This document shows, in pieces, positions 1,058 through 45,712 of a DNA stretch of 64,000 bases. Location: NCBI GenBank assembly GCA_015062245.1, contig SUVA01000002.1, forward strand, positions 25,234-89,233. The letters are read 5' to 3'. The notes under the pieces were generated by a model. It did not search any database. It saw only the letters and a list, made by a program, of their open reading frames with translations, and had not been told where the DNA came from. Source of the DNA: Alphaproteobacteria bacterium. GTDB lineage: Bacteria > Pseudomonadota > Alphaproteobacteria > CAAHEQ01 > UBA3637. Made by a program: the position numbers and the translations under genes. Every line of letters begins with the position of its first letter. Within the stretch, counting starts at the first letter, position 1.

Positions 1058-2818
1058 TTACCTGCGTCCGAACAGCTTTTCAATATCGTTTAATTTCAAT
1101 GTGATATAGGTGGGACGGCCATGAATACATTGACCGGATGTGCCACATTCTTCCATTTGTCTGAGCAAAGCATTCATCTCATCAATTGTTAAAATTCGTC
1201 CCGCCCGTACCGATCCGTGACAGGCCATTTTGGCGCAAATATCTTTCATTTTATCCTGTAATAAAACGGTATCATCAAAAGTTTTCAAGGTATCGGCCAA
1301 ATCCTGAATGGTTTGTTTTAAATCAGCTTTATCCATCAATGCGGGGATTTCACGCACGGCAATGCTGTCGGGGCCAAAAGCGTCCAAAACCCAACCCATT
1401 TTATTTAATTCATCACTTCTGTCCATCAAAAGGGAAACTTCTTCGGGTTTTAAATCCACGATTTCGGGAACCAATAACAATTGAGTTTGAACCTTTTCGC
1501 CCAAGTTTTTCATCATTTTTTCATAGGTTAAACGTTCATGGGCGGCGTGTTGATCCACAATTAAAATGCTGTCGGTTGTTTGTGAAATAATATAGGTTTT
1601 ATGTAATTGCGCTTTGGCCAATCCCATAGGCGGAAAAACAACAATTTCGGTTGTTTTTTCTTCTTTGGGCTGATTTTGTGTTTTAACGCTGAAACTGTCC
1701 GACATTTGAAACATCGGTTGTGGCGATGGAATTGATTTTGGAATATGCGTTTTGGCCAAAGGTGTATAGGGTGTTGAATGTTCCTGATAACTGCCCAAAG
1801 CACCGATATGGATAGTGGTCGCCGTTTGTTGGGCGTGTTCGGCCAAGGCGTTGCGAATGCTGGCCACCATCAAGCCCCGAATTTTGCCGGCATCTTGAAA
1901 GCGAACTTCTGTTTTGGCCGGGGACACATTGACATCCAATAAACGATTGGGGAGAGATAAGAACAAAGCCAACACGGGATGGCCGTCACTGCCATGTCCC
2001 ATCAAACCCTGATAGGCACCCCGTACCGCCCCCAGTAAAACTTTATCTTTCACATAGCGACCATTGACATATAAATACTGTTCGGTGGATGTGGCACGTG
2101 TATAAGTGGGTAATCCCACAAAACCGGATAAGCGGATGTTGTCATGCTCTGTTTGAACGGCCACGGCATTTTCTTTAAACTGATGGCCGATAATCATAGA
2201 CACCCGATCAAATAAATTCTGGGTTGCCGGATAATTTAACAGCTTTTTATTTTCGTTTTCCAATGAAAAAGTGATATTCGGATAGCACATTGCCAAACGG
2301 TCCACAATATCACGGATGGCCATTTGTTCACTTTGATCGGATTTTAAAAACTTTAATCGGGCTGGCGTATTATAAAATAAATCCTGAACTTCAATTTTTG
2401 TGCCATAGTTGCATGAGCTTGGTTCGGGATTGTTTTTGACTCCGCCGTTGATTTGAATTTTCCACCCTGATTCGCTTTGTGGCGTGCGTGAAGAAATGGT
2501 CATTTTACTGACCGATGCGATGGATGGAAGTGCTTCCCCCCGAAATCCCAAAAAATTGATATTGACCAAATCGTCATCGGGTAATTTGCTGGTGGCATGG
2601 CGTTCTATGGCCAAACTTAATTCTTGGGGCGACATGCCTTTACCGTTATCCGATACACAAAAATAACTTTTACCCCCTTGTTCAATTTTAATATCAATCC
2701 GATTGGCTTTGGCATCAATGGCATTTTCAATCAATTCTTTGATGGCGCTGGCGGGGCGTTCTACTACCTCACCGGCGGCGATTTGATTTATCAGATTTTG
2801 GGGTAAAACACGCAACAT
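1058..2818 (-). CDS. mutL: DNA mismatch repair protein MutL
   Basis: N-terminal GHKL ATPase motifs (ELIENAIDA, DNGKGM) and conserved MutL C-terminal domain. Confidence 0.95.
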   Translation of the reverse strand: MLRVLPQNLINQIAAGEVVERPASAIKELIENAIDAKANRIDIKIEQGGKSYFCVSDNGKGMSPQELSLAIERHATSKLPDDDLVNINFLGFRGEALPSIASVSKMTISSRTPQSESGWKIQINGGVKNNPEPSSCNYGTKIEVQDLFYNTPARLKFLKSDQSEQMAIRDIVDRLAMCYPNITFSLENENKKLLNYPATQNLFDRVSMIIGHQFKENAVAVQTEHDNIRLSGFVGLPTYTRATSTEQYLYVNGRYVKDKVLLGAVRGAYQGLMGHGSDGHPVLALFLSLPNRLLDVNVSPAKTEVRFQDAGKIRGLMVASIRNALAEHAQQTATTIHIGALGSYQEHSTPYTPLAKTHIPKSIPSPQPMFQMSDSFSVKTQNQPKEEKTTEIVVFPPMGLAKAQLHKTYIISQTTDSILIVDQHAAHERLTYEKMMKNLGEKVQTQLLLVPEIVDLKPEEVSLLMDRSDELNKMGWVLDAFGPDSIAVREIPALMDKADLKQTIQDLADTLKTFDDTVLLQDKMKDICAKMACHGSVRAGRILTIDEMNALLRQMEECGTSGQCIHGRPTYITLKLNDIEKLFGRR

Positions 2819-23736: not shown

Positions 23737-25941
23737 CTAGTTCATCCAACTGCAATCGTTTACCTTGTTTACAATGGACATATCTGTGCTTCCCGCAGAA
23801 CCGCAATAATACAGGTTTTGAATTGTACCAGTGTAAAAACCTTGACAATATGCTTTTTTACTTCCTTGCAGATAGGCATTGGTTATGTTACCCGGTGTGG
23901 AAGCTATTATACAATTACATTCTCCACAACTGGCAAGACCATACTCTCCCCCATAAGCAATCAAAGTGCCAATTGTTGCTTCCCCATACACATTGTATAA
24001 TCCACCATTTTTAATCTCTATTTTAGAAGCCTGTAAAGAACCATCGTTTTGCAAGTTTCCTTTTTCTATTTCTATATTTGTTGCTTCCAATGTTTTGACA
24101 GTACTGTATATGCTGTTTGAATTGAGTATACATGTTTCAGGGGTGAAAACTCCACCTGCTGCTGTTATTGGCCCTGAAAAAATTGAACATGTTATATTTT
24201 TTGCAGAGAGTTTTCCTGAATTGTCTAATCCTTTGGCAGCTTTTACATTTATTTTATTTGTTGCAGTTATTGTTCCTGTGTTTCTTATTGCATAAAGATC
24301 TTTGGATAGATTTCCTGTTTCAAAACTTTCTTCTTCCCCCACTACAGTGATATTGTCGGAATTGATTGTTCCGTAATTTGTAATTCCAACGTTAATCATT
24401 TGAGCACTTGCATCTATATCGGAAATATTTAAAGTTCCTCTGTTAATTATTGAAGCATTCGTGGTAAGAGAATCCGAATAAATTGTTCCGTAGTTTTGAA
24501 CAGAATAAGCATTGTCGTTATTACCATCACTTCTTATAAGAATACTATTGACTTTTAAGGTTTTTCCTTCTGACACTGATACCTGCAGAACAGATTGATC
24601 GGAAAATGATAATTTGCATTCGGAAATGTCTAAATCTTTTTCGACGTTTAATCTGCCGTTATATTTTATGGTTTCATTATCTTTCATTAAAAATGTTCCG
24701 TTGGTCCCCGAACTTTCTTTGTCGAGAACATAACCAGCATCAAGCATTTTCAAACAACATTGATTTTCACCGCATCCATCGTCTTCAACGCAATTATTTC
24801 CATCCAGTTTATAACCTTTTTCACATTTTATCGGCAACCCGCTTTCGTTGCACTCCGTCACATTTGCACCACAAGGCGTGCAGGTATTTCCATTTAAATA
24901 ATAGCCAGTTTGACAGGCTGTTGGTTTGCCCGTTGAATCACAGCTGAGCACACCTGTACCACAGGATGTGCAAGAATTTCCATTTTTATAATAGCCGGCT
25001 TGGCAGGTAAAGCCATTTGAAGTACAACTAGCCACACCTGTTGTCGGACATTGAACACAAGAATTACCGCTTAAATAATAACCACTTTTACAAGAGGTTG
25101 GTTTGCCCGTTGAATCACAGCTGGCCACACCTGTGCCACAGGATGTGCAAGAATTTCCATTTTTATAATAGCCGGCTTGGCAGGTAAAGCCATTTGAAGT
25201 ACAACTAGCCACACCTGTTGTCGGACATTGAACACAGGAATTTCCATTTAAATAATACCCCTCTTCACATTCTGTCGGATTGCCATTTTCATCACAAGTA
25301 ACGACACCTGTGCCACAGGAAGTGCAAGTATTACCGTTTTTATAATATCCTGATTCGCATTCAAATCCATCGTCTTTGCAATCCATACTGTTCTCTGGGC
25401 ATTCAATACAATTACCATTTGACAAAAAATACCCGTCAACACAACCTATCGGATTAAAATCACTGTCGCAAACGGCGTTCGCCGGACATTCCCGAGGTTG
25501 ACTATCTTTATCCGGTGTTGTTGATGAATCGGCCTCAGGAAACTTTAAAAAATAAAAGGTAACATTGCTGGTTGATTCACATTCGTCTTTTGTATATCCG
25601 GCACCTATATCAAATTCAGTCAAAACCCCACACAAAGAAGAACTATTCGTTTTTACATCAATCCAAAACCAATCTTTGTTTTTATCACCAACCCCATTTT
25701 CAATCGTAAATATCGTATCGTAGGGACCTTTTTCCGTTCGTGGCATCCGTTCACCGGCATGCGCATTCATAGAAAGTAAGCGAGAATTTTTAATAGCTGT
25801 CAATCTTTGGGCCAATGTATGGGTTTGGCTTTCCAATCTGGCCTCTTGCCACAGACGAATACCAGCCACCGTAATCAATGCAATAATAACCAATACGGAT
25901 AAAACTTCTAATATTGAACGGCCAAATTGTGCTTTTTTCAT
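23737..25941 (-). CDS. type IV pilin-like N-terminus / Cys-rich GYY-CxxC repeat / beta-helix-like large surface protein
   Basis: GGAG RBS; leader MKKAQFG|RSILEVLSVLVIIALITVAG with G(-1) and E(+5); 59-aa tandem Cys-rich repeats (CxxC..GYYxNGNxC); C-terminal NxGT(I/L)-type repeats; paralog of 30944..33169. Confidence 0.75.
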   Translation of the reverse strand: MKKAQFGRSILEVLSVLVIIALITVAGIRLWQEARLESQTHTLAQRLTAIKNSRLLSMNAHAGERMPRTEKGPYDTIFTIENGVGDKNKDWFWIDVKTNSSSLCGVLTEFDIGAGYTKDECESTSNVTFYFLKFPEADSSTTPDKDSQPRECPANAVCDSDFNPIGCVDGYFLSNGNCIECPENSMDCKDDGFECESGYYKNGNTCTSCGTGVVTCDENGNPTECEEGYYLNGNSCVQCPTTGVASCTSNGFTCQAGYYKNGNSCTSCGTGVASCDSTGKPTSCKSGYYLSGNSCVQCPTTGVASCTSNGFTCQAGYYKNGNSCTSCGTGVLSCDSTGKPTACQTGYYLNGNTCTPCGANVTECNESGLPIKCEKGYKLDGNNCVEDDGCGENQCCLKMLDAGYVLDKESSGTNGTFLMKDNETIKYNGRLNVEKDLDISECKLSFSDQSVLQVSVSEGKTLKVNSILIRSDGNNDNAYSVQNYGTIYSDSLTTNASIINRGTLNISDIDASAQMINVGITNYGTINSDNITVVGEEESFETGNLSKDLYAIRNTGTITATNKINVKAAKGLDNSGKLSAKNITCSIFSGPITAAGGVFTPETCILNSNSIYSTVKTLEATNIEIEKGNLQNDGSLQASKIEIKNGGLYNVYGEATIGTLIAYGGEYGLASCGECNCIIASTPGNITNAYLQGSKKAYCQGFYTGTIQNLYYCGSAGSTDMSIVNKVNDCSWMN
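24958..25312. repeat. near-identical 177-bp tandem repeat (2 copies; diverged copies flank to ~24840-25340) inside pilin-like gene
   Basis: acaggatgtgcaagaatttccatttttataatagccggcttggcaggtaaagcc... recurs at 24961 and 25138 (period 177 bp = 59 aa). Confidence 0.85.
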
Positions 25942-38807: not shown

Positions 38808-40790
38808 ATGATTTATTTAACTGGTGATCATTTACCGATTAAAACGATTCGTCAGGTGGCCAAAAAATTAAAGGTTCCTTTGTGGCCAAATAACGAAAAA
38901 CCTTTAATTAAATATGGTTTGGAACAAAGTTTTCCTAAAAAATTGGCGGTTTTGGCAAAAGATTTGGGGGAAGACAAATTGTCCGAGCTTTTCTTTTTGC
39001 CTGTTTCTTCGGTGATTGATGCATCGGCTTTGCCTGAATCAATCGAATCGTTTTTGAAAAAAAGTGCTCAGACATCTTTGCCGAATACTTTAAGCTTTTT
39101 ATTGACCTGTCCTGTGATTTACAGTGCAAACATTGCCCAAATTTTTATGCGGGCGTTAAATCGTCATTTGCATTTTTCCAGATCTCAGTTTGAAAATGTC
39201 CACTTTGCCTTACATGAATCTATTGTGAATGGCTTGATTCACGGCAATTTACACGTGAACAGTTCTATGCGTCAATCGGCCCGTGATTTTGTGGAATATG
39301 CCCGTTTATTGCACGATCGTTTAAATGATCCGTCTTATGCCAATAAATCGTTGAGCATTGTGGCCAGTTGGGATAAGAAAAAACTGGAAATTAAAATCCG
39401 TGATGAAGGCGATGGATATACGTCTGTCAGTACACCGAATACAACTTCGTGTGTTTATGCCAAATCGGGCAGAGGTCTTCGCATTATTGCGGGAACGGCT
39501 GATTCTTGTACCATAGAAGATTTTGGTCGGGAAGTAACGCTTTCGTTTTTATTGACGGATACACCGGCATCGCATTGGGTTGAAAATTATCAAGATGATA
39601 ATCAAACAACATTGTCTCGGGATATTTTGGCCTCTGAACTTAATTCCTGTCGTGTTTTGGTGATAGAAGATAACCCGTCTAATCAGGCTGTTTTGGCCCG
39701 ATTGCTCAGTATTATGGGAATCAATCAGGTTGCCATGGCCAACGATGGTGTGGCCGGTTTGGAAAAAGTGGGCGAATTCAAGCCGGATTTGATTGTATTG
39801 GATATTACAATGCCCCGAATGAACGGTTATGAAGTTTTGCACGAATTGAAAAAAGATAAAGCGACTTCGGATATTCCTGTTTTGATTCAAACGGCGGCGG
39901 ATAATCGTGAGGCACGGGAAAAAACATTCAGTTCTGGTGCGACGGATTTTATTACAAAACCGATCAATCCTTTGGAATTTTTTGCCCGTGTGCGTGTTCA
40001 TTTGGAAAACCGTTTGTTGATTCAAAATTTGGAAAAACAATTATCCCAAATTGAAACCGAGTTGGCGTCTGCCCAAAAAATGCAAGTGGGTATTTTACCG
40101 TCCAAAAAAGATTTAGAAGAAGTCAGAAAAAAATACCGTTTGGATGTGGCTCAATATTTTGCCCCGTCCTCGGCTTTGGGGGGGGATTTTTGGCAAACAT
40201 ATCCGATATCGGCTTCTAAATTATGTGTATATTTATGTGATTTTTCAGGGCACGGTATGGCGGCTGCCTTAAATACTTTCCGCTTGCACGCTTTGTTTTC
40301 GCAAATGAATAAGCGTTTGTTGGATCCGGCTGAGGCTTTGAAAAAGTTAAATAAGCAACTTTATTCTTTATTGCCCCGTGGTCAGTTTGCCACATTGTTT
40401 TTAGGGATTATTGATATCAAAAAAAGGGAAATGATTTATTCAGGTGCAAGCGCCCCCAAACCTTTATTGGTCAATAAAGGGCGTAAGTTGTTTTTGCATA
40501 CTGAAGGGATGCCCTTGGGAATTATGGCAAATCCAAAATATAAAAACTATAAGGTTAAGATGAATCCGAATGATGTTTTGTTGTTATACAGTGATGCTTT
40601 GATTGAAACGCCCAATGCCCAAGGTGAACGTTTGGGCTATGAAGGGCTTCAAAAAATGGTTGTGCCGATGATGCGTCAAACGGATGTGAATCAGATTATG
40701 AAAGACATTATGCAGGCCTTTTTTAACTATGCGCCACCGCCACCATCTGATGATGTAACGGCTGTTTTATTTCGTGCGGGGGAAAAATGA
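38808..40790 (+). CDS. fused partner-switching regulator: RsbW-like HATPase + response-regulator receiver + PP2C (SpoIIE/RsbU-like) phosphatase
   Basis: N box (HESIVNGLIHGN), G1 (IRDEGDGY), G2 (SGRGLRII); REC (VLVIEDN...D.ITMP..NGYEVL..K); PP2C motifs (GDFWQ..., LYSDALIE, SDDVTAV). Confidence 0.78.
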   Translation: MIYLTGDHLPIKTIRQVAKKLKVPLWPNNEKPLIKYGLEQSFPKKLAVLAKDLGEDKLSELFFLPVSSVIDASALPESIESFLKKSAQTSLPNTLSFLLTCPVIYSANIAQIFMRALNRHLHFSRSQFENVHFALHESIVNGLIHGNLHVNSSMRQSARDFVEYARLLHDRLNDPSYANKSLSIVASWDKKKLEIKIRDEGDGYTSVSTPNTTSCVYAKSGRGLRIIAGTADSCTIEDFGREVTLSFLLTDTPASHWVENYQDDNQTTLSRDILASELNSCRVLVIEDNPSNQAVLARLLSIMGINQVAMANDGVAGLEKVGEFKPDLIVLDITMPRMNGYEVLHELKKDKATSDIPVLIQTAADNREAREKTFSSGATDFITKPINPLEFFARVRVHLENRLLIQNLEKQLSQIETELASAQKMQVGILPSKKDLEEVRKKYRLDVAQYFAPSSALGGDFWQTYPISASKLCVYLCDFSGHGMAAALNTFRLHALFSQMNKRLLDPAEALKKLNKQLYSLLPRGQFATLFLGIIDIKKREMIYSGASAPKPLLVNKGRKLFLHTEGMPLGIMANPKYKNYKVKMNPNDVLLLYSDALIETPNAQGERLGYEGLQKMVVPMMRQTDVNQIMKDIMQAFFNYAPPPPSDDVTAVLFRAGEK

Positions 40791-43710: not shown

Positions 43711-44358
43711 ATGCCCGATTTTAAATACGAATCTGCGCTGGGTGATTTTCGCCAAATAGCCGGTTTGGATGAAGCGGGCAGGGGCCCTTGGTGTGGTCCC
43801 GTTGTGGCCGGATGTGTGATGTGGGTGAACGGTTGCCCTGATGATTTAATGCAACAAATCAACGATTCAAAAAAACTGACAGGGGCAAAGCGTGAGGCAT
43901 TGTTTGATAAAATTATTGCTTCCACACCGGCCTATGGTATCGGTCAGGCAAGTGCCAAAGAAATTGATGAATTGAATATCTTACAGGCTTCTTTTTTGGC
44001 GATGCAACGGGCCTATGACGATATGCTTCAAAAAGGTTTTCAACCCACCCATATTTTAATTGACGGCAATCGTTTACCCCAAAAAACACCTGTGCCGGCT
44101 CAGGCAATTATCGGTGGTGATGCCAAAAGTCTTTCCATTTCGGCGGCCAGTATTTTGGCCAAAGTAACACGTGACAGAATTATGACCGATTTGGCCAAAC
44201 AATATCCGGCCTATGGTTGGGATAAAAATGCGGGTTACGGCACCAAGATTCATCAACAGGCCCTGCAACAATATGGTATTACACCGCATCATCGTTTAAG
44301 TTATAAACCCATTCAAAAAATAAAACAATCGCTTGACAAAGACGATAAAGTTTTATAG
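43711..44358 (+). CDS. rnhB: ribonuclease HII
   Basis: IAGLDEAGRGPWCGPVVA...ILIDG..K motifs. Confidence 0.9.
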   Translation: MPDFKYESALGDFRQIAGLDEAGRGPWCGPVVAGCVMWVNGCPDDLMQQINDSKKLTGAKREALFDKIIASTPAYGIGQASAKEIDELNILQASFLAMQRAYDDMLQKGFQPTHILIDGNRLPQKTPVPAQAIIGGDAKSLSISAASILAKVTRDRIMTDLAKQYPAYGWDKNAGYGTKIHQQALQQYGITPHHRLSYKPIQKIKQSLDKDDKVL

Positions 44359-44395
44359 TATGGGGATAAGTAAACAAAAAAGGAGATATCGCACA

Positions 44396-45712
44396 ATGCG
44401 TTTAAACCACGATAAAGGGCAAAATAAATGGACCTTGTACACACACACACACACACAAGTAATTCCTGAAAAGACAAAAGCCACCGAAGGTGGCCGTTCA
44501 ATGGTTGAAATGTTGGGAACTTTGGCGATTATAGGGGTGCTATCCATAGGTTCTATTTGGGCCCTTTCGGGTGTGATGAATCGCTTTCGTGCCAATGATT
44601 TATTGGAAGAAGCCTCGGCCCGTGCCATGCGTGTATCCGAACAAATTAAAAAAGGGCGTAAAACATTAAGCCTTGGTAAATTTTTACATAACGAAACGAT
44701 GGGCGGTACTTTTTCCAAACAGGTTTTTACTTCAGGGCTTTATCAACAATTTGCAATTCAGGTATCCGATGTAAATAAAGCCGTTTGTGAAAGGGTTTTA
44801 AATTCTATTACCGAAAATACCCCTTTGCGCCGATTGTCATTGGTGAATTCCCCAACGGTTGCCATCACCGAATGTAATGATGAAAATACGTTTTTGATGG
44901 TTTATAACAGCTCTATCAAAGGGGAAGAACAGGATAAAAAATATTGCGAATCTGATAAAGATTGTGATACGGTTTGTGGAGAATGTAATGAAAATCATAT
45001 ATGCCGTAATGAATGTGAAATTCCAAGACCTGATTTAAATTCTGATTTTGGTCAAGAATGTGGCGAAAATGAATGTGTTGTTTATGATGAAGAAAGTCAG
45101 AGTTGTAAATATAGCTGTGAACGTGTGGAATATTTGGAAGGAACTTACAATTCAGGAAATTCATATATTGATACAGGAATAAAATATGATTGGAGTAAAG
45201 ATTTTTACATGAATATAACAGCTTCTGTTCCCAGTGCAAATGCACGTTTTTGTTTGATTGGGGATTATGCAGCGCAAGGAATAAATTTGGAAAAATCAAA
45301 TAATAAATTGCGTGTTTACGGGCATGGAGGAACTCCAAACAATAACTCTGTAAATGATTTACCAAAAGATAATCAAAAATTCAATGTTCAATGGAGAAGA
45401 AGTATTTCTAATTCAGATGTGGATGTTATTTTAACAACAGATGAATACACAGAAACAATATCAAGAATAGGTATAACTTTTCAAAATGTTTCAAGTTCCA
45501 GCTTGAAAATTTTTACTGATAATCGTTTATCAGGAACATTTATTACACCTGGTGAAAGAATATATTCTTTATATATAAAATTAGGGGAAAATATTCGTGA
45601 TTTCATTCCTGTTATTTCGCCTGATGGTGAACCATGTATGTTTGACAAAGTCAGTAAAAAGCTATTCCGTAATTCAGGAACAGGAACTTTTAAAACAAAT
45701 TTAGATGAATAA
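44396..45712 (+). CDS. type IV pilin-like N-terminus / Cys-rich / C-terminal beta-sandwich-like domain protein
   Basis: AGGAG RBS 10 nt before ATG 44396; leader ...KATEGG|RSMVEMLGTLAIIGVLSIGSIWALSGV (G-1, E+5); Cys-rich CDTVCGECNENHICRNECE segment; ATG 44333 rejected because it lies inside rnhB. Confidence 0.7.
   Translation: MRLNHDKGQNKWTLYTHTHTQVIPEKTKATEGGRSMVEMLGTLAIIGVLSIGSIWALSGVMNRFRANDLLEEASARAMRVSEQIKKGRKTLSLGKFLHNETMGGTFSKQVFTSGLYQQFAIQVSDVNKAVCERVLNSITENTPLRRLSLVNSPTVAITECNDENTFLMVYNSSIKGEEQDKKYCESDKDCDTVCGECNENHICRNECEIPRPDLNSDFGQECGENECVVYDEESQSCKYSCERVEYLEGTYNSGNSYIDTGIKYDWSKDFYMNITASVPSANARFCLIGDYAAQGINLEKSNNKLRVYGHGGTPNNNSVNDLPKDNQKFNVQWRRSISNSDVDVILTTDEYTETISRIGITFQNVSSSSLKIFTDNRLSGTFITPGERIYSLYIKLGENIRDFIPVISPDGEPCMFDKVSKKLFRNSGTGTFKTNLDE
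44439..44456 (+). repeat. (AC)9 dinucleotide tract inside the leader-peptide coding region (YTHTHTQ)
   Basis: acacacacacacacacac read directly; in frame between start codon and prepilin cleavage motif. Confidence 0.9.

What the first reader, a model, noticed from the sequence alone, without database searches (positions are those of the whole stretch)
44396..44500. (AC)9 microsatellite in frame within the prepilin leader of a Cys-rich pilin-like gene: candidate phase-variation switch
ATG 44396 (AGGAG RBS 10 nt upstream) opens a 33-aa leader MRLNHDKGQNKWTLYTHTHTQVIPEKTKATEGG followed by the prepilin core RSMVEML. Codons Y-T-H-T-H-T-Q are encoded by a perfect (AC)9 tract at 44439-44456. Gain or loss of one AC unit shifts the frame before the pilin domain, so the gene would switch on and off by slipped-strand mispairing as in classic contingency loci. 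It is the only long dinucleotide tract seen in the window, and it sits in a surface-adhesin family gene.
Basis: partly seen in the sequence, partly recalled or inferred. Interest (0 to 1): 0.68.

Follow-up and report, generated by a model that had tools for sequence, protein, structure and literature searches.

The report
Phase-variable AC repeat in pilin leader
A run of nine AC units in the cleaved leader of a pilus-adhesin gene from an uncultured Alphaproteobacteria MAG gains and loses units in nature, so it very likely switches the gene on and off by frameshift, the known trick of pathogens such as Helicobacter and Neisseria.

Summary
ATG 44396, with AGGAG 10 nt upstream, opens a 33-codon leader that contains a perfect (AC)9 at 44439-44456. 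This is the only dinucleotide tract of 5 or more units in the 64 kb window, and 0 are expected by chance.

Three independent metagenome contigs match the window over 3.8-4.3 kb with 0 mismatches and a single 2-nt gap, which is the tract: (AC)8 once and (AC)10 twice. Four further samples carry (AC)9. Orthologues carry 6, 8, 9 or 10 units, and other lineages of the family carry 10, 14, 17, 20 and 26.

Only counts divisible by 3 keep ATG1 in frame. Both off-frames stop 1-3 codons after the tract (TAA 44460, TGA 44467). No canonical in-frame start lies between the tract and the Gly-1 cleavage site. A conserved TTGACA-N17-TAGTAT promoter lies upstream of the tract.

The product is a modular type IV pilin: a IVb-like pilin module, a Cys-rich linker and a ConA/LamG-like lectin module with a hypervariable core.

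The mechanism is a known kind, as in H. pylori oipA and Neisseria pilC, so this is a new member. Some relatives place the same AC leader in a separate upstream ORF followed by a terminator. Switching within a population and expression were not testable.

The parts
44333..44361 (+). Sigma-70-type promoter, TTGACA (44333-38), 17-nt spacer, TAGTAT (44356-61). It is conserved in all orthologous loci even though the upstream neighbours differ.
   Evidence: scores it 10 of 12 matches, the best in the region. The same element is present in L001, L002, L003, L009 and L017. It places the transcription start upstream of the tract and downstream of ATG 44360 and TTG 44333.
44380..44398 (+). Shine-Dalgarno AAGGAG (44380-85) and start codon ATG1 (44396-98).
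   Evidence: AGGAG-N10-ATG is kept in L003 and L017, although the spacer sequence differs there. The region is unpaired in the RNA fold.
44396..44494 (+). The 33-codon prepilin-type leader, MRLNHDKGQNKWTLYTHTHTQVIPEKTKATEGG. The Gly-1 codon is at 44492-94.
   Evidence: The AF2 model is disordered over residues 1-35.
44439..44456 (+). The (AC)9 simple sequence repeat, followed by A at 44457. It is the hypermutable switch element and is in frame with ATG1 only when the unit count is divisible by 3.
   Evidence: Natural alleles of 8, 9 and 10 units occur in otherwise identical DNA.
44428..44430 (+). Alternative ATG2, with AAAGGG 8 nt upstream. It is in frame with the pilin only when the tract has 10 units (or 7, 13 and so on). 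Possibly a weak second start.
   Evidence: P0122 and P0123 were called from it on (AC)10 alleles. It is present in the L003 species but absent from the L001/L002/L009 species.
44460..44469 (+). Off-frame stop codons just after the tract. TAA 44460-62 is hit with +1 unit and TGA 44467-69 with -1 unit. Both lie within the conserved motif TAATTYCTGA.
   Evidence: Equivalent stops in both off-frames are seen in L011, L007 and L008.
44480..44494 (+). Local hairpin GCCACC-GAA-GGTGGC, encoding A-T-E-G-G. It contains the SD-like GAAGGTGG that lies 7 nt before ATG 44501. It is not a + strand terminator.
   Evidence: It is conserved in lineage A only.
44495..44935 (+). Pilin module, mature residues 34-180. 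The N-terminus is RSMVEMLGTLAIIGVLS with Glu at +5, followed by a 50-residue alpha-1 helix and a beta-sheet head.
   Evidence: AF2 model with pLDDT 84. The top 8 PDB matches are all type IVb pilins, the best being 9iuf_A at E 3e-3, TMq 0.61. The only PDB sequence-profile hits are type IV pilins, and they are weak.
44936..45181 (+). Cys-rich linker, residues about 181-262.
   Evidence: (invariant Cys columns).
45182..45712 (+). C-terminal beta-sandwich module of the ConA/LamG (LNS) lectin type, residues 263-438 plus the stop codon. Residues 263-395 (45182-45580) form a hypervariable core between conserved flanks.
   Evidence: Foldseek matches to neurexin LNS, agrin G2, pentraxin and legume lectins at E 7e-6 to 3e-4. 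Region-by-region identity and blastn breakpoints.

Best explanation
The (AC)9 tract is a hypermutable simple sequence repeat inside the cleaved leader of a modular type IV pilin gene. Slipped-strand mispairing during replication adds or removes AC units. Transcription starts at the conserved promoter at 44333-44361 and translation at ATG 44396. With 6, 9 or 12 units the ribosome reads through the tract into Gly-1|RSMVEML, and the full prepilin is made. Prepilin processing, filament incorporation and display of the lectin-like module, probably at the filament tip, are all inferred. With 8 or 10 units the ATG1 frame ends at TGA 44467 or TAA 44460 and no prepilin is made. The exception may be low-level initiation at ATG 44428 in the 10-unit state. 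Because the tract sits in the part that is cut off, in-frame changes (6 to 9, 14 to 17) alter only the discarded Thr-His run and not the mature protein. The result would be a heritable, reversible, stochastic on/off (possibly graded) switch for a surface adhesin. Shown here: the tract, its natural length polymorphism, the frame consequences, the conserved promoter, SD and ATG, and the predicted fold. Inferred: slippage as the mutational mechanism, reversibility, the effect on protein level, and processing and filament incorporation.
For: (1) L004, L005 and L006 match the window over 4212, 4287 and 3835 bp with 0 mismatches and one 2-nt gap, the tract, giving 8, 10 and 10 units. L012-L015, from four other samples, have 9 units. 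(2) Orthologues in related species: L003 has 6 units (in frame), L017 with the same leader has 8 (out of frame), L002 has 9, L001 has 10 (out), and L009 and L010 have 8 (out). By protein sequence, P0129 has 6 and P0130 has 9. (3) I predicted that family genes annotated as starting at the internal MVEML are off alleles. All those I examined carry an out-of-frame AC tract upstream: P0004, P0125, P0127, P0133, P0021, P0031 and P0033. (4) The tract recurs in divergent family members at 32-38% identity, within a conserved leader module K-G-..-L-Y-(TH)n-..-E-K-..-G|RSMVEML, with 6 to 26 units. Within one 90% cluster the counts are 10, 14 and 17. (5) Both off-frames stop within 1-6 codons after the tract in every lineage examined. 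(6) In the window, L008 and L011 there is no in-frame ATG, GTG or TTG between the tract and Gly-1. Family members with Leu, Ala or Ile at +3 cannot start at +3, so the leader must be translated. (7) The promoter, SD and ATG1 are conserved upstream of the tract across loci whose upstream neighbours differ: rnhB, a tRNA, or another gene. (8) The product has a pilin module plus a lectin-like module with a hypervariable core, the kind of surface protein that is typically phase-varied.
Against: All the evidence comes from consensus assemblies. No reads were available, so heterogeneity within a population and the switching rate are unknown. No expression data exist. mutL is present in the window. 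From my own knowledge, mismatch repair suppresses dinucleotide slippage in E. coli and H. influenzae, so rates may be modest. The class III signal peptide is atypical, with Arg at +1. Pfam and NCBIfam pilin models do not detect it in this protein and score below threshold in a paralogue. No prepilin peptidase or pilus machinery lies in the window. ATG 44428 could make the 10-unit state leaky. L018 cannot be restored by any tract length, so at least one off allele looks like decay rather than a reversible phase state.
Confidence: 0.85

Rival explanations
1. A three-state (graded) switch rather than a binary one. (AC)9 would give strong expression from ATG1. (AC)10 would give weak expression from ATG 44428, which has a weak AAAGGG SD and would yield a 23-aa leader MDLVHTHTHTQ.... 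(AC)8 would be off. From my own knowledge, this resembles the multiple-ATG arrangement described for H. influenzae lic1.
For: ATG 44428 is in frame with the pilin in the natural (AC)10 alleles L005 and L006, and two pipelines called the gene from it. An ATG at the same position and in the same frame exists in the L003/L017 species.
Against: The SD is weak, and ATG2 lies inside the translated ATG1 reading frame. It is absent from the closely related L001/L002/L009 species, where (AC)10 and (AC)8 alleles have no alternative start. In L011 a nearby ATG sits in a different frame, so its presence may be coincidental.
Confidence: 0.2
2. The length differences are neutral polymorphism or assembly or sequencing artefacts, and the gene is expressed regardless. 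In this view translation starts at ATG 44501 (MVEML...) behind the SD-like GAAGGTGG, and the tract lies in a 5' untranslated region.
For: GAAGGTGG-N7-ATG 44501 looks like a ribosome-binding site. Gene callers choose this ATG for off alleles.
Against: Gly-1, Arg+1 and Ser+2 lie upstream of that ATG and are nearly invariant across 138 family proteins. Many members have Leu, Ala or Ile at +3 and short leaders that start upstream. The SD-like string is simply the Glu-Gly-Gly codons, sits inside a hairpin, and is absent from other lineages. Independent assemblies give the same counts (L005 = L006; L009 = L010; L012-L015). Counts range from 6 to 26, which is beyond error. Tracts of 18-20 bp are shorter than the assembly k-mers named in the contig ids (k141, k87).
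Confidence: 0.05
3. Transcriptional phase variation. The tract would act as a variable promoter spacer or upstream element, as in the promoter-located repeats of H. influenzae hif or Neisseria opc, rather than as a coding frameshift.
For: TTGTAC-N17-AGTAAT spans the tract and loosely resembles -35/-10 hexamers. Four relatives carry the tract upstream of the pilin start codon.
Against: The promoter scan does not report that pair. The strong, conserved promoter lies 78 nt upstream of the tract. A promoter spanning the tract would leave no start codon before Gly-1. Spacers built from 6-26 units (12-52 bp) are incompatible with a -35/-10 spacer. In the four relatives the tract lies inside a small ORF followed by a terminator, not between promoter hexamers.
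Confidence: 0.03
4. The off alleles are decaying pseudogenes, that is, one-way gene loss in a redundant family, rather than reversible phase states.
For: L018 carries a second lesion, so no tract length restores the frame. The family is very large, with at least 550 relatives in one collection, so individual copies may be dispensable.
Against: Off alleles have no other differences from on alleles over about 4 kb. Apart from L018, the examined off alleles show no lesion other than the tract length. On and off alleles alternate among samples with consecutive project numbers. Perfect tracts are maintained across lineages at 32-64% identity, which argues for selection on the repeat.
Confidence: 0.05

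Closest known systems
Helicobacter pylori oipA (and, from my own knowledge, sabA, sabB and hopZ): CT dinucleotide repeats in the signal-peptide-coding 5' region (PMC10564699)
   Same: A dinucleotide repeat lies inside the cleaved N-terminal signal region of a surface adhesin gene. Unit gain or loss by slipped-strand mispairing frameshifts the gene on or off. Many repeat numbers are seen among isolates. In-frame changes affect only the discarded peptide.
   Different: oipA has a Sec-type signal peptide on an outer-membrane beta-barrel protein, whereas this gene has a prepilin-type (class III) leader on a pilin. The repeat is AC rather than CT. The host is an uncultured Alphaproteobacteria MAG that encodes mutL, whereas, from my own knowledge, H. 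pylori lacks MutHL-type repair. There is no experimental on/off data here.
Neisseria pilC1/pilC2: a homopolymeric G/C tract within the reading frame of a pilus-associated adhesin (PMC5953494)
   Same: Both are SSR frameshift switching of a type IV pilus-associated adhesion factor. From my own knowledge, the pilC tract also lies in the signal-peptide-coding part.
   Different: PilC is not a pilin and uses a homopolymer tract. Here the switch sits in the pilin's own leader and uses a dinucleotide.
Streptococcus gallolyticus pil1: GCAGA repeats in a leader-peptide ORF upstream of a terminator, an attenuation-like phase variation (PMC3894217)
   Same: Relatives of this gene (L021, L023, L024, L047) have the AC tract in a separate small upstream ORF, followed by an intrinsic-terminator-like hairpin and then the pilin gene. 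In L024 and L047, exactly one of the three frames runs into the hairpin.
   Different: The window gene itself has no + strand terminator between the tract and the pilin. The leader is fused in frame, so the switch acts by translation. S. gallolyticus Pil1 is a sortase-assembled pilus, not a type IV pilus.
Modular type IV pilins: S. sanguinis PilC (pilin module plus ConA-like lectin module), PilB, and ETEC CofB (PMC8179133, PMC6048534)
   Same: Both have an N-terminal pilin module with a class III signal peptide, joined by a linker to a beta-sandwich lectin-type module that probably sits at the filament tip. The pilin module here is structurally closest to type IVb pilins, which from my own knowledge have long leaders.
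   Different: There is no detectable sequence similarity. Here Arg is at +1, the linker is Cys-rich, and the lectin core is hypervariable. None of those pilins is reported, in the papers I read, to carry an SSR in its leader.

Membership tests
SSR-mediated (slipped-strand) translational phase-variable locus | A perfect simple sequence repeat within the 5' coding region, at or above the length used to call phase variability (dinucleotides of 6-8 or more units in PMC5953494) | tested here: met
   (AC)9 at 44439-44456, the only such tract in 64 kb, with 0 expected by chance.
SSR-mediated (slipped-strand) translational phase-variable locus | The repeat number differs among otherwise identical or near-identical sequences | tested here: met
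   8, 9 and 10 units with 0 mismatches over 3.8-4.3 kb. Orthologues have 6, 8, 9 or 10 units, and other lineages 10, 14, 17, 20 and 26.
SSR-mediated (slipped-strand) translational phase-variable locus | Changes not divisible by 3 put the gene out of frame with early termination, and no alternative route to the product exists | tested here: met
   The ATG1 frame ends at TAA 44460 or TGA 44467. There is no in-frame start between the tract and Gly-1. Caveat: ATG 44428 is in frame at 10 units.
SSR-mediated (slipped-strand) translational phase-variable locus | Reversible, high-frequency switching within a clonal population, with a matching change in protein expression | not testable with these tools
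   Only consensus assemblies were available. There were no reads, cultures or expression data.
Type IV pilin (class III signal peptide protein) | Leader ending in Gly-1, Glu at +5, and about 20 hydrophobic residues | tested here: met
   ...EGG|RSMVEMLGTLAIIGVLSIGSIW. The motif is nearly invariant in 138 family proteins. Arg at +1 instead of Phe or Met is atypical.
Type IV pilin (class III signal peptide protein) | Recognised by curated pilin N-terminal models (PF07963, TIGR02532) | tested here: not met
   No hit for this protein. A paralogue scores below threshold: PF07963 at 16.7 bits against a cut-off of 21.2, and TIGR02532 at 13.7 against 16.3.
Type IV pilin (class III signal peptide protein) | Pilin fold: a long N-terminal alpha-1 helix packed on an antiparallel beta-sheet | tested here: met
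   The AF2 model has a 50-residue helix followed by strands, pLDDT 84. The top 8 PDB matches are all type IVb pilins, but E values are only 3e-3 to 0.4 and TMq 0.28-0.61.
Type IV pilin (class III signal peptide protein) | A prepilin peptidase and filament assembly machinery encoded in the genome | not testable with these tools
   None among the 30 large window ORFs scanned against Pfam. The rest of the genome is not in hand.
Modular pilin with lectin module (PMC8179133) | An extra functional module grafted C-terminal to the pilin module | tested here: met
   Residues about 258-434 form a beta-sandwich that matches LamG/LNS, pentraxin and legume lectin folds at E 7e-6 to 3e-4. Carbohydrate or ligand binding itself was not tested.
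Attenuation-like phase variation (S. gallolyticus pil1 type, PMC3894217) | The SSR lies in a separate leader-peptide ORF, followed by a transcription terminator upstream of the structural gene | tested here: not met
   In the window the leader is fused in frame, and no + strand terminator lies between the tract and the pilin. The feature is met in relatives L021, L023, L024 and L047.
Promoter-spacer SSR phase variation | The tract lies between or adjacent to the -35 and -10 hexamers of the gene's promoter | tested here: not met
   The conserved promoter is at 44333-44361. The tract starts 78 nt downstream of the -10 hexamer, inside the ORF.

The most novel reading that the evidence does not exclude
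The AC-repeat leader is a portable regulatory cassette: promoter, SD, ATG, about 14 codons, (AC)n, then stop codons in both off-frames. This lineage would deploy it in two mechanistically different ways across a very large family of modular pilin-adhesin genes. In one, it is fused in frame to the prepilin leader and acts as a translational on/off switch, as in the window. In the other, it is a separate upstream ORF whose one long frame runs into an intrinsic terminator and acts as an attenuation-type switch, as in L021, L023, L024 and L047. Together with swappable hypervariable lectin cores, this would give an uncultured commensal a combinatorial, stochastic adhesin repertoire. It would also be the first case of SSR phase variation built into a class III signal peptide.
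Probability: 0.4. Interest if true: 0.75.

Novelty: new member of a known kind. Interest (0 to 1): 0.55.

Why it matters
Phase variation by simple sequence repeats is documented mainly in cultured pathogens such as Neisseria, Haemophilus, Helicobacter and Campylobacter. Here the same logic appears in an uncultured, host-associated alphaproteobacterial lineage known only from metagenomes. On and off alleles can be observed directly across public samples.

This gives a concrete, testable marker for studying bet-hedging of adhesion in a commensal, by counting AC units in reads. It also warns annotators that gene calls in this family starting at 'MVEML' are probably off alleles of longer prepilins. 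And it identifies a large, unannotated family of modular pilins with exchangeable lectin-like heads.

If the two-architecture cassette holds up, it would show how one repeat module can evolve between translational and attenuation control.

Tried and rejected
1. An exact-pattern scan of metagenome contigs with the post-tract flank found nothing. The same scan of genome contigs gave one locus, L003.
2. Pfam and NCBIfam gave no significant family for the target protein. The PF02906 hit is below threshold and was ignored.
3. I considered the TTG 44333 and ATG 44360 starts from the mechanical ORF list. I rejected them because they overlap the -35 and -10 hexamers of the conserved promoter.
4. I considered the promoter-spacer model (TTGTAC-N17-AGTAAT) and rejected it (tract lengths of 6-26 units).
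5. The RNA fold of the 5' region is no better than shuffles, z +0.68, so no riboswitch-like or thermosensor-like structure is proposed. The 44480-94 hairpin looks terminator-like only on the - strand, where no nearby gene ends.
6. Literature searches for RF32/alphaproteobacterial pilins, for SSRs in pilin leaders, and for the JGI sample ids returned nothing relevant.
7. My automatic ATG-picking regex mis-assigned the start in L003 and L011. I corrected this by explicit three-frame translation.
8. I looked for pilus machinery in the window and found none.
Full report
**1. Observation**

The sequence at 44100-45300 shows AGGAG at 44381-85 and ATG at 44396-98. It shows a perfect (AC)9 at 44439-44456, followed by A at 44457. 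Translation from ATG 44396 gives a 438-aa protein that begins MRLNHDKGQNKWTLYTHTHTQVIPEKTKATEGG|RSMVEMLGTLAIIGVLS.

A regex scan and Tandem Repeats Finder find no other dinucleotide tract of 5 or more units in the 64 kb window, which is 39% G+C. In 100 dinucleotide-preserving shuffles, the 18-mer with up to two mismatches never occurred.

**2. The gene and its family**

Two paralogues in the window share the N-terminal motif. One lies at 58150-59289(-) with leader MTATLKNKNYKRSQKG|RSMVEML. The other lies at 23737-25941(-) with leader MKKAQFG|RSILEVL. Neither has a tract.

A database search returned 389 relatives. The exact protein is annotated as hypothetical in an NCBI record titled 'MAG: Alphaproteobacteria bacterium'. 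A later scan showed at least 550 relatives in one metagenome collection.

Across 138 retrieved proteins, the mature N-terminus G|RSMVEMLG(T/V)LA is nearly invariant. Most leaders are 5-12 residues long.

Curated pilin HMMs do not detect the target and score below threshold in a paralogue. Structure prediction is clearer:
- The AF2 model of the whole protein (pLDDT 78) has a disordered leader (residues 1-35) and a 50-residue helix (36-85), followed by a beta head, a Cys-rich stretch and a C-terminal beta-sandwich.
- The N-terminal module modelled alone (pLDDT 84) has type IVb pilins as its eight best PDB matches. These include the ETEC type IVb pilus (9iuf_A, E 3e-3, TMq 0.61), the V. cholerae TCP pilus and TcpA, and a type IVb pilin from Salmonella typhi.
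- A PDB sequence-profile search gave only weak hits, all of them type IV pilins.
- The C-terminal module matches LamG/LNS, pentraxin and legume-lectin folds at E 7e-6 to 3e-4.

The protein is therefore best described as a modular type IV pilin in the sense of PMC8179133: a pilin module plus a ConA-like lectin module, as in S. sanguinis PilC. From my own knowledge, type IVb pilins have long leaders, so a 33-residue leader is not anomalous.

The window context is housekeeping genes. Upstream of the gene are gyrA, infB, nusA, rimP, relA/spoT, an M16 peptidase and rnhB. Downstream are a hemerythrin, ychF, secA and sodB. No pilus machinery is present.

**3. The decisive test: natural tract-length variation**

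The 90% identity cluster of the window protein contains members of 438, 450, 428, 428 and 403 aa, plus a 271-aa fragment. The 403-aa member starts at the internal MVEML. The 428-aa members start MDLVHTHTHTQ.

I fetched the DNA for these. L004 has (AC)8, and L005 and L006 have (AC)10. blastn shows that these three contigs match the window over 4212, 4287 and 3835 bp with 0 mismatches and exactly one 2-nt gap. Four more samples (L012-L015) carry (AC)9. So the tract is the only polymorphic site in about 4 kb of a strain sampled in at least eight assemblies.

Orthologues in related species behave the same way:

| Locus or protein | AC units | ATG1 frame |
|---|---|---|
| L003 | 6 | in frame |
| L017 (same leader as L003) | 8 | out of frame |
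| L002 | 9 | in frame |
| L001 | 10 | out of frame |
| L009, L010 | 8 | out of frame |
| P0129 (from protein sequence) | 6 | in frame |
| P0130 (from protein sequence) | 9 | in frame |

**4. Frame logic**

ATG1 is in frame with Gly-1 only when the unit count is divisible by 3. One extra unit gives ...THTHTHK then TAA (44460-62). One fewer gives ...THTHTSNS then TGA (44467-69). The motif that holds both stops, TAATTYCTGA, is conserved in a lineage at 30% identity (L011), and equivalent stops occur in L007 and L008.

No ATG, GTG or TTG lies in frame between the tract and Gly-1 in the window, L008 or L011. The next ATG, at 44501, encodes Met+3 and lies after the cleavage site. Family members with Leu, Ala or Ile at +3 cannot start there.

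A TTGACA-N17-TAGTAT promoter (44333-61) is the best promoter-like site in the region. It is conserved, together with AAGGAG-N10-ATG, in loci whose upstream neighbours differ: rnhB, a tRNA, or an unrelated gene. It overlaps the mechanical upstream starts TTG 44333 and ATG 44360, which argues against them. The SD region is unpaired in the predicted mRNA fold, and the fold as a whole is not significant (z +0.68).

**5. Generality, and a prediction test**

(TH)n leaders occur in divergent members: P0016, P0035, P0039, P0040, P0042, P0044 and P0047. They share the module K-G-..-L-Y-(TH)n-[QLV]-[VI]-[IS]-[PS]-E-K-...-G|RSMVEML.

In the P0040 cluster the counts are 10 (L007, out of frame), 14 (P0040, in frame) and 17 (L008, in frame).

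I predicted that family genes annotated as starting at 'MVEML' are off alleles. Three untested cases were fetched, and all have out-of-frame tracts: L016 with (AC)26, L017 with (AC)8, and L018 with (AC)20. L018 also has a stop in the pilin frame just after the tract, so no tract length restores it. That allele looks locked off or decayed.

One GTDB genome (GCA_045631185.1) carries at least two tract-bearing genes, L003 and L011.

**6. Mechanism**

The best-supported reading is a slipped-strand, frameshift-type phase switch placed in the cleaved leader of a surface adhesin. In-frame changes then alter only a discarded Thr-His run. This is the design of H. pylori oipA, which has CT repeats in its signal-peptide region (PMC10564699). 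It resembles the design of Neisseria pilC, which has a G/C tract in its reading frame (PMC5953494).

One nuance: with (AC)10, ATG 44428 (preceded by AAAGGG 8 nt upstream) is in frame. This could give a weak third state. ATG2 is present in two of the three lineage-A species, so it may be coincidental.

mutL lies in the window. From my own knowledge, mismatch repair limits dinucleotide slippage in E. coli and H. influenzae. The rate may therefore be lower than in repair-deficient pathogens, yet variation is plainly seen.

**7. What is not shown**

- Heterogeneity within a population, and reversibility.
- The effect on protein level.
- Cleavage at Gly-1.
- The presence of a prepilin peptidase.
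- The ligand of the lectin-like module.

**8. Seen in relatives**

Among 80 further family loci, 78 of 82 pilin starts have short leaders and no AC tract. Four loci carry long tracts 116-188 nt upstream of Gly-1: L021 with 20 units, L023 with 16, L024 with 15 and L047 with 20.

In L024 and L047, where enough upstream sequence is present, the tract lies inside a separate small ORF; L024's shares the post-tract SKRCLEK sequence of the fused P0035 leader. In L021 and L023 the contig begins near the tract, so the start of that ORF cannot be seen.

In all four loci a + strand terminator-like hairpin with a T run follows the tract, and then immediately the SD and ATG of the pilin gene. In L024 and L047, exactly one of the three frames extends into the hairpin, while the other two stop 0-5 codons after the tract.

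This is the layout of the attenuation-like pilus switch of S. gallolyticus pil1 (PMC3894217). The window gene lacks such a terminator and is the fused version.

**9. Novelty and score**

The mechanism is a known kind. This instance, in a class III leader of a modular pilin in an uncultured alphaproteobacterium, is a new member. No paper in the searchable library describes it.

I score interest at 0.55. It is a well-supported, directly testable contingency locus outside the usual pathogens, and the two-architecture cassette is a more novel lead.

Noticed in passing
L021 1-320; L023 1-300; L024 90-480; L047 268-660: Four family loci carry long AC tracts (15-20 units) upstream of the pilin start codon. 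In L024 and L047 the tract lies inside a separate small ORF (L024's shares the post-tract SKRCLEK sequence of the fused P0035 leader); in L021 and L023 the contig starts too close to the tract to see the ORF start. In all four, a + strand terminator-like hairpin with a T run follows, and then immediately the pilin SD and ATG. In L024 and L047 exactly one of three frames runs into the hairpin. This looks like an attenuation-type phase switch, as in S. gallolyticus pil1.
   Followed up: partly
window 45182-45580 (residues 263-395 of the protein): The core of the lectin-like module is only about 20% identical between the window protein and its closest orthologues (P0002, P0127), while the flanks (residues 34-262 and 396-438) are 85-95% identical. 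blastn homology breaks at the same borders. This suggests an exchangeable hypervariable cassette; different orthologues appear to share cores with each other by eye (for example P0005 with P0007, and P0006 with P0008).
   Followed up: partly
L018 about 506-600: This allele with (AC)20 also has a stop (ATC TAA) in the pilin frame just after the tract. Relative to P0035 it carries a frameshift between ...SKRC and FG(T/A)LC..., so no repeat number can restore the ORF. It is either a locked-off or decaying copy, or a scaffold error.
   Followed up: partly
window 44428-44430: A second ATG, with AAAGGG 8 nt upstream, is in frame with the pilin when the tract has 10 units. Two public gene calls use it on natural (AC)10 alleles. 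The switch may therefore be graded rather than binary.
   Followed up: partly
window 44480-44494: The GC-rich hairpin GCCACC-GAA-GGTGGC encodes A-T-E-G-G just before the cleavage site. On the - strand it looks like a terminator (followed by TTTTGTCTTTT), but no - strand gene ends nearby. It is conserved only in the window's lineage, with one stem mismatch in L009 and L010.
   Followed up: partly
window 40178-40185: A G8 homopolymer lies inside the ORF 38808-40790(+), which encodes a HATPase_c_2, response-regulator and SpoIIE phosphatase protein. It is the only G or C run of 8 or more in a 39% G+C window and could be a second slippage-prone site.
   Followed up: no
window 24886-25347, within ORF 23737-25941(-): The 734-aa pilin-like paralogue contains a 177-bp tandem repeat (2.6 copies, 86% matches). 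It encodes Cys-rich ...GYY(L/K)NGNSC..C.. units with a weak resemblance to Giardia VSP (below threshold). This is an in-frame repeat that could vary in copy number.
   Followed up: no
window 1058-2818(-): A mutL gene is present in the same window, so the organism probably has mismatch repair. That is relevant to how fast a dinucleotide tract can slip.
   Followed up: no
L003 and L011 (both from GCA_045631185.1, contigs JAZQUH010000026.1 and JAZQUH010000034.1): One reference genome carries at least two different pilin-like genes with (AC)6 leaders. One of them (P0039) has an F5/8 type C domain in place of the LamG-like module. The lineage may therefore have a multi-gene repertoire of phase-variable adhesins.
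   Followed up: partly
family proteins P0059-P0119: Many over-long predicted 'leaders' in the family contain recurring peptide strings such as SMDLRVKPEDDRR, MSSSGLTRRSRNKD and CHSELVSESI. These look like translated repeat elements in the 5' regions, so gene callers probably over-extend these starts.
   Followed up: no
L072 (TA)7 139 nt upstream; L080 G8 74 nt upstream of the Gly-1 codon: A few other family loci have different simple repeats in their upstream regions. These might be promoter-located switches.
   Followed up: no
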